Assembly: GCF_017348835.2 (NCBI RefSeq) | Contig: NZ_CP071375.1 | DNA length: 64,000 nucleotides | Reading direction: 5' to 3' (one strand) | From: Escherichia coli | Lineage (GTDB): Bacteria > Pseudomonadota > Gammaproteobacteria > Enterobacterales > Enterobacteriaceae | Shown: positions 18,229 through 21,200 of the stretch, piece by piece | Layout of the letters: each line of letters opens with the position of its first letter | Numbering within the stretch: the stretch's first letter is position 1 | Made by a program: the position numbers

Positions 18229-21200
18229 TAACAAAAGCAATTTTTCCGGCTGTCTGTATACAAAAACGCCGCAAAGTTTGAGCGAAGTCAATAAACTCTC
18301 TACCCATTCAGGGCAATATCTCTCTTGCAGGTGAATGCAACGTCAAGCGATGGGCGTTGCGCTCCATATTGTCTTACTTCCTTTTTTGAATTACTGCATA
18401 GCACAATTGATTCGTACGACGCCGACTTTGATGAGTCGGCTTTTTTTTGCCTGTTATTTATCAGCGTCTACCCTTTAAGAGTCCACCCAATGACCGGAGG
18501 GAAATATGACGACACTTATTTATTTGCAAATTCCTGTCCCTGAACCGATTCCTGGCGATCCTGTTCCAGTGCCCGATCCGATCCCTCGCCCGCAACCCAT
18601 GCCTGACCCACCACCCGATGAAGAACCGATTAAATTGTCGCATCGTGAGCGTAGATCTGCGAGGATACGCGCCTGCTAACTTTGCGTCGATGACCACGAG
18701 AATAGATTGTGACCGCTTTTTCTACCCTGAATGTTTTGCCTCCCGCCCAACTCACGAACCTTAATGAGTTGGGTTATTTAACCATGACGCCGGTGCAGGC
18801 CGCCGCGCTTCCGGCGATCCTTGCCGGAAAAGATGTTCGCGTGCAGGCGAAAACCGGCAGCGGCAAAACGGCGGCTTTTGGCCTCGGCTTGTTACAGCAA
18901 ATTGATGCGTCGCTATTTCAAACCCAGGCTTTAGTGCTGTGTCCTACGCGTGAACTGGCGGATCAGGTGGCAGGTGAATTGCGTCGGCTGGCGCGTTTTC
19001 TGCCAAATACCAAAATTTTGACGTTGTGCGGTGGTCAACCGTTCGGTATGCAGCGTGATTCGTTGCAACATGCGCCGCATATTATCGTGGCAACGCCGGG
19101 GCGTTTGCTGGATCACCTGCAAAAAGGCACGGTATCACTGGATGCGTTGAATACGCTGGTGATGGATGAGGCCGACCGCATGCTGGATATGGGATTTAGC
19201 GATGCCATTGATGATGTCATCCGTTTTGCGCCAGCATCTCGACAGACGCTTCTGTTTTCGGCAACCTGGCCGGAAGCCATCGCCGCAATCAGCGGACGAG
19301 TGCAACGCGATCCTTTGGCGATTGAAATTGACTCAACAGATGCTTTGCCACCCATTGAACAACAATTTTATGAGACATCCAGTAAAGGCAAAATTCCTCT
19401 GTTGCAACGGTTATTAAGCTTGCATCAGCCATCCTCTTGTGTGGTGTTTTGCAATACCAAAAAAGATTGCCAGGCTGTCTGCGACGCGCTGAATGAAGTA
19501 GGGCAAAGTGCATTGTCGTTACACGGCGATCTGGAGCAACGCGATCGCGATCAGACCCTGGTACGTTTTGCTAACGGTAGCGCCCGTGTACTGGTTGCGA
19601 CTGATGTTGCTGCGCGTGGTATGGATATTAAATCGCTTGAGCTGGTGGTGAACTTTGAGCTGGCGTGGGACCCTGAAGTTCATGTACATCGCATCGGTCG
19701 TACAGCTCGTGCAGGAAATAGCGGTCTGGCGATCAGTTTCTGTGCTCCGGAAGAAGCACAGCGGGCCAATATCATTTCTGACATGTTGCAGATAAAACTT
19801 AACTGGCAAACGCCGCCAGCTAATAGTTCCATTGTGACGCTGGAAGCAGAAATGGCAACGTTGTGTATCGATGGCGGAAAAAAAGCCAAAATGCGCCCGG
19901 GTGATGTATTAGGTGCACTGACAGGAGATATCGGGCTTGATGGCGCAGATATTGGCAAAATCGCCGTGCATCCGGCGCATGTCTATGTCGCGGTCCGTCA
20001 GGCTGTTGCTCATAAAGCATGGAAACAGTTACAGGGCGGGAAGATTAAAGGAAAAACGTGCCGGGTGCGGTTATTAAAATAATGAAATGTTGAATTGCCG
20101 GGTGCAAGAGTAAACATCTGATTCGGGATTGCCGGATGCGACGCTGGCCGCGTCTTATCCGGCCTCCATAAGAGTAGCCCGATACGCTTGCGCATCGGGC
20201 GCCATCCTGGTTATTTCACTTCAACCACATTCAGCCGTAACTCATCCAACTGATTTTCATCTTCTTCTGGCTGCCAGCCCGCCGGTTGTAGTGGGATCTC
20301 TTCGCGATCAAACGCCAGATCACCCCCGTTAACCACTTCAGAACCGTGGGTGATGCCTTTGAAATCGAACAGGTTGGTATCGCACAGATGCGACGGCACC
20401 ACATTCTGCATCGCGCTGAACATCGTCTCGATACGCCCCGGATAACGTTTATCCCAGTCACGCAACATGTCAGCAATCACCTGACGTTGCAGGTTAGGCT
20501 GTGAACCGCACAGGTTGCACGGAATAATCGGGAACGCTTTTGCATCGGCAAATCGCTGAATATCTTTCTCGCGGCAGTAGGCCAGCGGACGAATAACGAT
20601 ATGTTTGCCATCATCGCTCATCAGTTTCGGAGGCATACCTTTCATCTTGCCGCCGTAGAACATATTTAAGAACAACGTTTGCAGGATATCGTCACGATGG
20701 TGGCCCAACGCGATCTTCGTCGCCCCCAGTTCCGTTGCGGTACGATAAAGAATACCGCGACGTAGCCGAGAACACAGTGAGCAAGTGGTTTTGCCCTCTG
20801 GAATCTTCTCTTTCACGATACCGTAAGTGTTCTCTTCAACAATCTTGTACTCAACGCCCAGCTTTTCAAGATACTCGGGCAGAACGTGTTCCGGGAAGCC
20901 CGGTTGCTTTTGATCGAGGTTAACAGCCACCAGCGAAAAATTGATTGGCGCGCTTTGCTGCAAATTGCGCAGAATCTCCAGCATGGTATAGCTGTCTTTA
21001 CCCCCGGAGAGGCAAACCATGATGCGATCGCCTTCTTCAATCATATTGAAGTCAGCAATGGCTTCGCCCACGTTACGACGCAGACGTTTTTGTAATTTGT
21101 TCAGGTTGTATTGTTCTTTCTTTGTAATTTGTTGATTTTCTTGCATTATTTCAGTTCTCTGGTACTAAATGGGGCAAATTGGGGGCAAACTTTGCAACTA

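What the first reader, a model, noticed from the sequence alone, without database searches (positions are those of the whole stretch)
18421..18679. Terminator-bounded candidate sRNA followed by an unannotated 57-codon proline-rich ORF between zntB and dbpA
A strong intrinsic terminator (stem-loop plus T8) sits ~190 nt downstream of zntB, suggesting a short independent transcript; my recollection is that K-12 has a small RNA in this intergenic region, but that is unverified. About 55 nt further on, a GGAGGG RBS with ideal spacing precedes a 57-codon ORF encoding a Pro-rich peptide (PVPEPIPGDPVPVPDPIPRPQPMPDPPPDEEP). Its length falls below the ORF-track cut-off.
Basis: partly seen in the sequence, partly recalled or inferred. 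Interest (0 to 1): 0.3.

Follow-up and report, generated by a model that had tools for sequence, protein, structure and literature searches.

The report
Known FnrS sRNA and YnaL protein
The flagged stretch holds two already catalogued E. coli genes, the oxygen-responsive small RNA FnrS and the 57-residue proline-rich protein YnaL, so it is not a new discovery, although the end of ynaL carries an unexplained, unusually frozen DNA block just ahead of the helicase gene dbpA.

Summary
The sequence features are real, but both are already known. The terminator (stem 18421-18440, T8 18441-18448) is the 3' end of fnrS (window 18327-18448; K-12 b4699; Rfam RF01796, 134.8 bits against a gathering score of 60). 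FnrS is the FNR-activated, Hfq-dependent sRNA. Its FNR box (18278-18291) is centred at -42.5, as published.

The 57-codon ORF (18506-18679) is ynaL (b4743, Pfam PF23677, E = 2e-40). RefSeq annotates it as "proline-rich small protein YnaL". VanOrsdel et al. 2018 detected the protein by chromosomal SPA tagging, so "unannotated" is wrong.

New here:
- zntB-fnrS-ynaL-dbpA synteny holds in every locus examined, from at least 13 enterobacterial genera.
- The Pro-rich core is under protein-level purifying selection (dN/dS 0.06, against 2.5-5.0 in shifted frames).
- AlphaFold predicts an extended rod with no globular fold.

One residual oddity: two blocks in the last ~17 codons of ynaL (18626-18644 and 18654-18673) have almost no synonymous variation (1 of 13 codons against 20 of 21 in the core, p = 3e-7). 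This implies an overlapping nucleotide-level element upstream of dbpA. Tests for RNA structure, a promoter, CsrA binding, 23S rRNA mimicry and FnrS pairing did not identify it.

Verdict: already known; low interest.

The parts
18278..18291 (+). FNR box TTGAGCGAAGTCAA of the fnrS promoter, centred at -42.5 relative to the transcription start at 18327
   Evidence: Read from the sequence. Nearly invariant in 14 genera or species. Myers 2013, Table 1, lists an FNR ChIP-seq peak at fnrS with the site at -42.5.
18314..18319 (+). fnrS -10 hexamer CAATAT, 7 nt upstream of the transcription start
   Evidence: Read from the sequence; GCAATAT is conserved. Its role as the -10 element is inferred from position.
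18327..18448 (+). fnrS, the 122-nt FNR-activated, Hfq-dependent small regulatory RNA (K-12 b4699)
   Evidence: Rfam RF01796 scores 134.8 bits (gathering score 60), E = 4.9e-26, over the full model 1-119. The sequence is identical to MG1655 1409129-1409250. The predicted fold has a 5' stem-loop, a U-rich single strand, a middle stem-loop and a terminator.
18370..18387 (+). Single-stranded C/U-rich region of FnrS, containing the published pairing-mutant positions 47-49 and 57-59
   Evidence: Largely unpaired in the predicted fold. The mutants fnrS-I (U57-59) and fnrS-II (C47-U49) of Durand and Storz are as cited in PMC8595263.
18421..18448 (+).
   Evidence: Terminator scan; last helix of the Rfam model; stem arms and T-run conserved in all genera.
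18447..18474 (+). Candidate weak sigma-70 promoter for ynaL(-dbpA): TTGCCT (18447-18452), 16-nt spacer, TACCCT (18469-18474). CTACCCT is invariant in an otherwise variable spacer.
   Evidence: Inference only: the -10 matches 3 of 6 positions, and the spacing is broken by a 9-nt deletion in Citrobacter sp. Awk 4.
18496..18501 (+). ynaL Shine-Dalgarno GGAGGG (AGAGGG in K-12)
   Evidence: A GGAGG-type SD about 5 nt before the ATG is conserved in nearly all loci.
18506..18679 (+). ynaL (b4743), encoding the 57-aa proline-rich small protein YnaL
   Evidence: ORF. Pfam PF23677 scores 136.9 bits (gathering score 27). RefSeq annotation. The 57-aa sequence is identical to the one listed in VanOrsdel 2018, where the protein was detected by SPA tag.
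18557..18625 (+). Pro-rich core, residues 18-40 (DPVPVPDPIPRPQPMPDPPPDEE), under protein-level purifying selection. It includes the PPP motif at 18608-18616.
   Evidence: dN/dS = 0.061, with pS = 0.60; the shifted frames give 2.5 and 5.0. AlphaFold pLDDT is about 90 with an extended chain and no secondary structure.
18626..18644 (+). Frozen block 1, CCGATTAAA(T/A)TGTCGCATC: no synonymous variation across genera
18654..18673 (+). Frozen block 2, GATCTGCGAGGATACGCGCC, which includes the rare codons AGG and ATA: nucleotide-invariant across genera
   Evidence: Fisher p = 3e-7 against the core.
18709..20082 (+). dbpA (ATP-dependent RNA helicase), with a GTG start 29 nt after the ynaL stop; probable operon partner
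   Evidence: The gap is 27-29 nt in most genera. Co-transcription is inferred.

Best explanation
The interval contains two known genes in tandem between zntB and dbpA.

(1) fnrS, 18327-18448. Under anaerobiosis, FNR binds the box centred at -42.5 and activates a class II promoter. With Hfq, its C/U-rich single-stranded regions pair with the translation-initiation regions of mRNAs that are not needed without oxygen (sodB, gpmA, cydDC, iscR and others) and repress them. The gene's identity is shown here; the mechanism is taken from the literature.

(2) ynaL, 18506-18679. This is a translated gene for a 57-aa protein made in aerobic LB cultures. Its acidic alternating X-Pro core (residues 18-40) is selected as protein and is predicted to be an extended polyproline-II-type rod with no globular fold.

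My inference for how ynaL works: it is the first cistron of a ynaL-dbpA transcript. That transcript would start at a weak promoter overlapping the FnrS terminator tail, or arise by read-through. YnaL would then act as a small interaction or spacer module connected with DbpA and 50S subunit maturation. The 3' ~50 nt of ynaL would additionally carry a nucleotide-level cis element that sets dbpA expression; dbpA has a GTG start and a weak SD 29 nt downstream.

The identities of both genes are shown. The function of YnaL and the role of the frozen block are inferred and remain unknown.
For: - fnrS identity: Rfam RF01796 at 134.8 bits. The 489-nt intergenic region matches MG1655 at all but one base, and there fnrS (b4699) and ynaL (b4743) are annotated at the corresponding positions.
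- fnrS regulation: Myers 2013 reports an FNR ChIP-seq peak with the site at -42.5. FnrS is described as FNR-controlled, Hfq-dependent and a repressor of iscR and other targets.
- ynaL identity: Pfam YnaL E = 2e-40; RefSeq name 'proline-rich small protein YnaL'.
- YnaL protein: detected by SPA-tag immunoblot in LB cultures and seen in a tetracycline ribosome-profiling screen.
- Conservation: 162 homologues, the named ones all from Enterobacteriaceae. zntB-FnrS-ynaL-dbpA synteny holds in 30 of 30 genome loci plus 3 more. The ATG and GGAGG SD are conserved.
- Selection: core dN/dS = 0.06 against 2.5-5.0 out of frame.
- Structure: extended, no fold, pTM 0.23.
- Frozen 3' blocks: p = 3e-7.
Against: - No function has been reported for YnaL in the held literature.
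- Co-transcription with dbpA is not demonstrated here.
- The candidate promoter is weak (3 of 6 in the -10), and its spacing is lost in one Citrobacter.
- No covariation supports any RNA structure in the ynaL-dbpA junction.
- The conservation of the C-terminal residues (PIK-S, RSARIRAC) may reflect DNA- or RNA-level constraint rather than protein-level constraint, so the 'basic tail' cannot be assumed to be a functional protein feature.
Confidence: 0.93

Rival explanations
1. ynaL is mainly a regulatory leader ORF for dbpA. Translation of its polyproline tract (DPPPD, with 19 Pro in 57 codons) would depend on EF-P and on prolyl-tRNA supply. Ribosome progress through ynaL would then control dbpA by translational coupling, mRNA unfolding or Rho polarity, and the peptide itself would be a by-product.
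For: - The PPP motif is invariant in almost all homologues.
- The ynaL stop lies a conserved 27-29 nt before dbpA, which has a GTG start and only a weak CGAGA Shine-Dalgarno.
- Synonymous sites at the ynaL 3' end are frozen.
- RNAalifold proposes that GAAGAACCG (18620-18628) pairs with CGCUUUUUC in dbpA codons 2-5, enclosing the dbpA start.
- From general knowledge, proline-codon leader ORFs (mgtL and mgtP in Salmonella) and EF-P-dependent CadC are precedents.
Against: - The non-proline residues of the core (D, V/I, R, Q, M, E) are also under strong purifying selection (dN/dS 0.06). A pure proline-codon sensor would not need that.
- The SPA-tagged protein accumulates to detectable levels.
- No intrinsic terminator or attenuator lies between ynaL and dbpA.
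- The proposed pairing has no compensatory changes, and the single-sequence fold has a z-score of only -1.1.
Confidence: 0.15
2. One reading: the terminator marks a not-yet-verified candidate sRNA, and the ORF is a new, unannotated small-protein gene.
For: The features exist as described.
Against: Both are annotated in MG1655 (b4699 and b4743) and in RefSeq. They are in Rfam and Pfam and have been studied experimentally.
Confidence: 0.01
3. The stem-loop plus T8 is only the zntB terminator, and the 190 nt upstream of it are the zntB 3' UTR, not an independent transcript.
For: No other intrinsic terminator was found on the + strand between the zntB stop (18231) and 18421. zntB read-through transcripts therefore probably also end here (inference).
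Against: A conserved FNR box and -10 element sit at the correct distance from the FnrS 5' end. An FNR ChIP-seq peak is reported there. The full-length Rfam match begins at 18327. K-12 annotates a separate ncRNA gene.
Confidence: 0.03
4. The ynaL frame is conserved only because the DNA carries non-coding signals for dbpA, with no selection on a protein.
For: The last ~17 codons include two nucleotide-invariant blocks. There, amino-acid conservation cannot be separated from nucleotide conservation.
Against: In the core, third codon positions vary freely (pS = 0.60) while the amino acids stay fixed (pN = 0.07), and the pattern exists only in the annotated frame. The start codon and SD are conserved. 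The protein has been detected.
Confidence: 0.05

Closest known systems
FnrS sRNA (Rfam RF01796; E. coli K-12 b4699; Durand and Storz 2010; Boysen et al. 2010)
   Same: It is this gene. The sequence is identical to K-12, with the same zntB/dbpA flanks, FNR box at -42.5, three-hairpin architecture and intrinsic terminator.
   Different: Nothing in the sRNA differs. The window strain differs from K-12 at only one base of the whole intergenic region, and that base lies outside fnrS.
YnaL, proline-rich small protein (Pfam PF23677; K-12 b4743; VanOrsdel et al. 2018)
   Same: It is this gene. The 57-aa product and its position are identical.
   Different: The window has GGAGGG where K-12 has AGAGGG in the Shine-Dalgarno (position 18496). 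The function is uncharacterised in either strain.
TonB proline-rich spacer (Pfam PF16031 TonB_N; NCBIfam NF008084)
   Same: Both have alternating X-Pro repeats with charged residues, expected to form a rigid extended polyproline-II segment. There are weak compositional hits (E = 0.0003 and 0.68).
   Different: The scores are far below the family cut-offs (20.8 against 315 bits; 11 against 33 bits). YnaL has no transmembrane anchor and no C-terminal TonB domain, so it is not a member.
Proline-codon or polyproline-dependent regulatory ORFs (Salmonella mgtL and mgtP leaders; EF-P-dependent CadC); recalled from general knowledge
   Same: A short Pro-rich ORF with a PPP motif lies immediately upstream of another gene, so its translation should be EF-P-sensitive.
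   Different: No attenuator or terminator was found, and no alternative structures are supported. The peptide sequence beyond the prolines is strongly conserved, and the protein accumulates.
Proline-rich antimicrobial peptides (Onc112, Bac7, apidaecin); recalled from general knowledge
   Same: Short Pro-rich peptides containing PRP-type motifs.
   Different: Those peptides are strongly cationic and are secreted by eukaryotes. The Pro-rich core of YnaL is acidic, and the protein is made in the bacterial cytoplasm. The resemblance is only compositional.

Membership tests
FnrS sRNA (Rfam RF01796) | Covariance-model score at or above the gathering threshold (60 bits) over the full model | tested here: met
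   134.8 bits, E = 4.9e-26, model positions 1-119 of 119, window 18327-18444.
FnrS sRNA (Rfam RF01796) | Located between zntB (ydaN) and dbpA, on the same strand | tested here: met
   The same arrangement is found in 30 of 30 other enterobacterial loci.
FnrS sRNA (Rfam RF01796) | FNR-dependent promoter with an FNR box about 41.5-42.5 bp upstream of the transcription start | tested here: met
   TTGAGCGAAGTCAA at 18278-18291 is centred at -42.5 and conserved. This matches the ChIP-seq table of Myers 2013. FNR binding itself was not tested here.
FnrS sRNA (Rfam RF01796) | Rho-independent terminator with a U-tail (the Hfq-binding 3' end) | tested here: met
   8-bp stem plus T8.
FnrS sRNA (Rfam RF01796) | Anaerobic induction, Hfq dependence and repression of target mRNAs | not testable with these tools
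   Taken from the literature only.
YnaL (Pfam PF23677) | HMM score at or above the gathering threshold (27 bits) over the full length | tested here: met
   136.9 bits, E = 2.1e-40, residues 1-57 against profile positions 1-57.
YnaL (Pfam PF23677) | Same product and same locus as E. coli K-12 b4743 | tested here: met
   The coding sequence is identical, and it is annotated at the corresponding coordinates. The 57-aa sequence equals that listed in VanOrsdel 2018.
YnaL (Pfam PF23677) | Translated, with selection acting on the protein | tested here: met
   Core dN/dS = 0.06 against 2.5-5.0 in the other frames. Immunoblot detection comes from the literature.
TonB N-terminal or proline-rich region (PF16031 / NF008084) | HMM score at or above the curated cut-off | tested here: not met
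   11 bits against 33; 20.8 bits against 315. These are compositional matches only.
Leader-peptide attenuators and proline-sensing leader ORFs | Alternative RNA structures or a terminator between the leader ORF and the regulated gene | tested here: inconclusive
   No intrinsic terminator lies between 18679 and 18709. The RNAalifold consensus is -10.9 kcal/mol with 0 compensatory pairs, because the stems are invariant. The single-sequence z-score is -1.1.
Leader-peptide attenuators and proline-sensing leader ORFs | Downstream gene expression depends on translation of the leader | not testable with these tools
   Needs reporter fusions.
CsrA-regulated mRNA | CsrA binding at GGA-containing hairpins in vivo | tested here: not met
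   A GCG-AGGAUA-CGC hairpin exists at 18659-18670. However, the Potts 2017 supplement lists dbpA with no CLIP peak and no significant change.

The most novel reading that the evidence does not exclude
The last ~50 nt of ynaL (18626-18673) are dual-coding. Besides encoding residues 41-56, they would carry a conserved nucleotide-level element, such as an operator or promoter for dbpA, a ribosome standby or pausing site containing the rare AGG-ATA codons and the SD-like GAGGA, or a binding site for a protein or sRNA. Together with the EF-P-dependent polyproline tract, this element would tie synthesis of the DbpA helicase to translation status. Neither a function for YnaL nor a regulator of dbpA was found in the held literature.
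Probability: 0.3. Interest if true: 0.35.

Novelty: already known. Interest (0 to 1): 0.08.

Why it matters
The check does show that the first-stage reader can recover real small genes from raw sequence.

The added comparative analysis gives clean codon-level evidence that YnaL's Pro-rich core is selected as protein across Enterobacteriaceae. It also flags a small testable question: why are the synonymous sites at the ynaL 3' end, just upstream of dbpA, frozen? Answering that could reveal how expression of the 23S rRNA-specific helicase DbpA is controlled, and what YnaL does.

Tried and rejected
1. 23S rRNA hairpin-92 mimicry in the ynaL 3' end or dbpA leader, as a route to DbpA autoregulation. 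Only scattered 6-8-mers are shared with rrlH (best E = 2.8). Rejected.
2. FnrS pairing with the ynaL or dbpA initiation regions or with the frozen blocks. Duplex energies fall within the shuffle distributions (fraction of shuffles at least as good: 0.46, 0.54 and 0.15). Rejected.
3. A conserved RNA structure in the ynaL-dbpA junction. The RNAalifold consensus is weak with 0 compensatory pairs, and the single-sequence z-score is -1.1. Uninformative, because the candidate stems never vary.
4. An internal sigma-70 promoter for dbpA. The strict scan finds none. The best relaxed candidate is TGcGAGGAT at 18658-18666, with only 3 of 6 in the hexamer. By-eye comparison with sigma-E, sigma-32, sigma-54 and sigma-28 consensus sequences gave nothing convincing. 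Unresolved.
5. A CsrA site in the GGA-loop hairpin. dbpA has no CLIP peak and no significant change in Potts 2017. Not supported.
6. An alternative-frame ORF (18618-18764) explaining the frozen sites. Its ATG is lost in Salmonella, Klebsiella and others, and indels shift the frame. Rejected.
7. Dam GATC as the constrained feature. GATC is replaced by AATT in Raoultella. Rejected.
8. TonB homology. Scores are well below the cut-offs. Rejected.
9. Fold search. Not run, because the AlphaFold model has no secondary or tertiary structure (pTM 0.23), so matches would be meaningless.
10. The original FnrS papers (PMC2941437, PMC2856277) are not held. Secondary sources were used instead.
11. Literature searches for a YnaL function found only VanOrsdel 2018.
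Full report
**Observation**

The region was read directly and its ORFs listed. zntB occupies 17248-18231. A stem-loop, GCCGACTTTGATGAGTCGGC (18421-18440; 8 pairs, 5 of them G-C), followed by T8 (18441-18448), is the strongest terminator-like site in 18100-18800. GGAGGG lies at 18496-18501, 4 nt before an ATG at 18506. That ATG opens a 57-codon ORF ending at 18679, whose product is MTTLIYLQIPVPEPIPGDPVPVPDPIPRPQPMPDPPPDEEPIKLSHRERRSARIRAC. dbpA starts with GTG at 18709.

**Identity of the RNA**

A search of 18100-18800 against Rfam gives a full-length match to RF01796 (FnrS) at 18327-18444: 134.8 bits against a gathering score of 60, E = 4.9e-26. 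The 489 nt from the zntB stop into dbpA match E. coli K-12 MG1655 at all but one base. In MG1655, fnrS (b4699, 1409129-1409250) maps to window 18327-18448.

The promoter has TTGAGCGAAGTCAA at 18278-18291, centred at -42.5, and CAATAT at 18314-18319. Myers et al. 2013 list an FNR ChIP-seq peak at fnrS with the site at -42.5. The FNR box, the -10 element and virtually all 122 nt are invariant across 14 enterobacterial species.

The predicted fold shows a 5' stem-loop, a C/U-rich single strand, a middle hairpin and the terminator. The mechanism comes from the literature: FNR-activated under anaerobiosis, Hfq-dependent, and repressing sodB, gpmA, cydDC, iscR and other mRNAs by base pairing.

**Identity of the ORF**

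The intergenic region is present in 5392 of 5426 complete E. coli genomes. In all 20 listed best hits the ORF is annotated as ynaL, 'proline-rich small protein YnaL' or 'protein YnaL'. In MG1655 it is b4743. It matches Pfam PF23677 (YnaL) end to end at 136.9 bits, E = 2e-40.

VanOrsdel et al. 2018 list exactly this 57-aa sequence between fnrS and dbpA. They detected the chromosomally SPA-tagged protein in LB cultures and noted that it also appeared in a tetracycline ribosome-profiling screen. They suggested it may form an operon with dbpA. I found no later functional study.

**Comparative analysis (new here)**

A protein search found 162 homologues, all carrying PF23677. Those that carry an organism name come from Enterobacteriaceae: Escherichia, Citrobacter, Salmonella, Enterobacter, Klebsiella, Raoultella, Kosakonia, Leclercia, Lelliottia, Pseudocitrobacter and others.

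Thirty genome loci and three more all show zntB, FnrS, ynaL and dbpA in the same order. FnrS scored 122-136 bits in all 30 genome loci; the three extra loci were not scanned for it. Nearly all of the 30 have an ATG preceded by a GGAGG-type SD, an ORF of 57-64 codons, and a gap of 27-29 nt, rarely 14-23 nt, to the dbpA GTG.

The N-terminal ~15 residues vary (dN/dS 0.35). Residues 18-40 (18557-18625) have pS = 0.60 but pN = 0.07, so dN/dS = 0.06. The same nucleotides read in the two shifted frames give 2.5 and 5.0.

AlphaFold gives an extended chain with no secondary structure. pLDDT is about 90 only over residues 21-40, and pTM is 0.23. That is consistent with a polyproline-II-type rod rather than a folded domain. 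The hits to TonB's proline-rich region are compositional and far below the cut-offs.

**An unexplained feature**

Two blocks in the last ~17 codons behave differently: CCGATTAAA(T/A)TGTCGCATC (18626-18644) and GATCTGCGAGGATACGCGCC (18654-18673). They are nucleotide-invariant across all genera, including Klebsiella, Kosakonia, Raoultella and Leclercia.

Only 1 of 13 codons there shows synonymous variation, against 20 of 21 in the adjacent core (Fisher p = 3e-7). The few changes that do occur are non-synonymous. The block includes the rare codons AGG and ATA and an SD-like GAGGA. This implies an overlapping constraint at the DNA or RNA level, plausibly connected with dbpA, which has a GTG start and a weak SD.

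I tested several explanations and could not support any of them:
- RNA structure.
- A sigma-70 promoter.
- A CsrA site.
- 23S hairpin-92 mimicry.
- FnrS pairing.
- An alternative-frame ORF.
- A Dam site.

A second small invariant motif, CTACCCT (18468-18474), lies in the otherwise variable FnrS-ynaL spacer. It sits 16 nt after TTGCCT, which overlaps the terminator tail. This could be a weak promoter for ynaL-dbpA, but the spacing is lost in one Citrobacter.

**Mechanism**

- Shown: the identities of fnrS and ynaL, their conservation and synteny, and protein-level selection on the YnaL core.
- From the literature: FnrS regulation and action, and YnaL translation.
- Inferred: ynaL and dbpA are co-transcribed; YnaL acts as an extended interaction or spacer peptide related to DbpA function; and the ynaL 3' end contains a cis element affecting dbpA.

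The main rival is that ynaL is primarily an EF-P-sensitive leader ORF. The invariant PPP motif and the tight spacing to dbpA make this attractive. The strong conservation of the non-proline residues and the accumulation of the protein weaken it.

**Verdict**

The claim of novelty is wrong. Both genes are already known, so interest is low. The only residual novelty is the frozen nucleotide block at the ynaL 3' end.

Noticed in passing
window 18626-18644 and 18654-18673: Two nucleotide-invariant blocks inside the 3' end of ynaL, with essentially no synonymous variation across at least 13 genera (1 of 13 codons against 20 of 21 in the adjacent core, p = 3e-7). They include the rare codons AGG-ATA and an SD-like GAGGA. 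The cause is unknown.
   Followed up: yes
window 18447-18474: An invariant CTACCCT motif in the otherwise variable FnrS-ynaL spacer, 16 nt downstream of TTGCCT, which overlaps the FnrS terminator T-tail. This may be a weak sigma-70 promoter for ynaL-dbpA. In some genera the motif can also pair with a downstream AGGGT(AG).
   Followed up: partly
window 18496: The only difference from K-12 MG1655 in the 489-nt zntB-dbpA intergenic region is G (window, GGAGGG) against A (K-12, AGAGGG) in the ynaL Shine-Dalgarno. Most other genera have GGAGG, so K-12 may translate ynaL less efficiently.
   Followed up: partly
L010 2501-2641 (E. coli E69); protein P0053 (Salmonella enterica): The X-Pro repeat region undergoes in-frame length changes. 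E. coli E69 has a 33-nt deletion, giving 46 aa. One Salmonella variant has a 10-residue duplication, giving 70 aa. This suggests repeat slippage that is tolerated in the N-terminal half of the rod.
   Followed up: partly
window 17187-17234 (+): A 15-codon ORF ([15 protein letters not shown]) 13 nt upstream of zntB. It is annotated in K-12 as ynaN (b4773) and is possibly a leader peptide for the zinc transporter gene.
   Followed up: no
window 18620-18628 with 18714-18722: RNAalifold proposes a long-range pairing of GAAGAACCG (ynaL codons 39-41) with CGCUUUUUC (dbpA codons 2-5) that would enclose the dbpA start. All pairs are invariant or change on one side only, so there is no covariation support.
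   Followed up: partly
window 18340-18448 (FnrS): Potts et al. 2017 report a CsrA CLIP-seq peak on FnrS (K-12 1409142-1409250), but their EMSA shows no high-affinity binding by CsrA alone. dbpA has no peak.
   Followed up: no
window 20211-21146 (-) and about 21199 onward: ttcA is followed by an integrase gene annotated as intR in both reference genomes. In K-12 this is the left end of the cryptic prophage Rac, so much of the rest of the window may be prophage.
   Followed up: no
window 18232-18420: No intrinsic terminator was found on the + strand between the zntB stop and the FnrS terminator. zntB transcripts may therefore read through the fnrS promoter and end at the FnrS terminator, yielding longer species that contain FnrS.
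   Followed up: no
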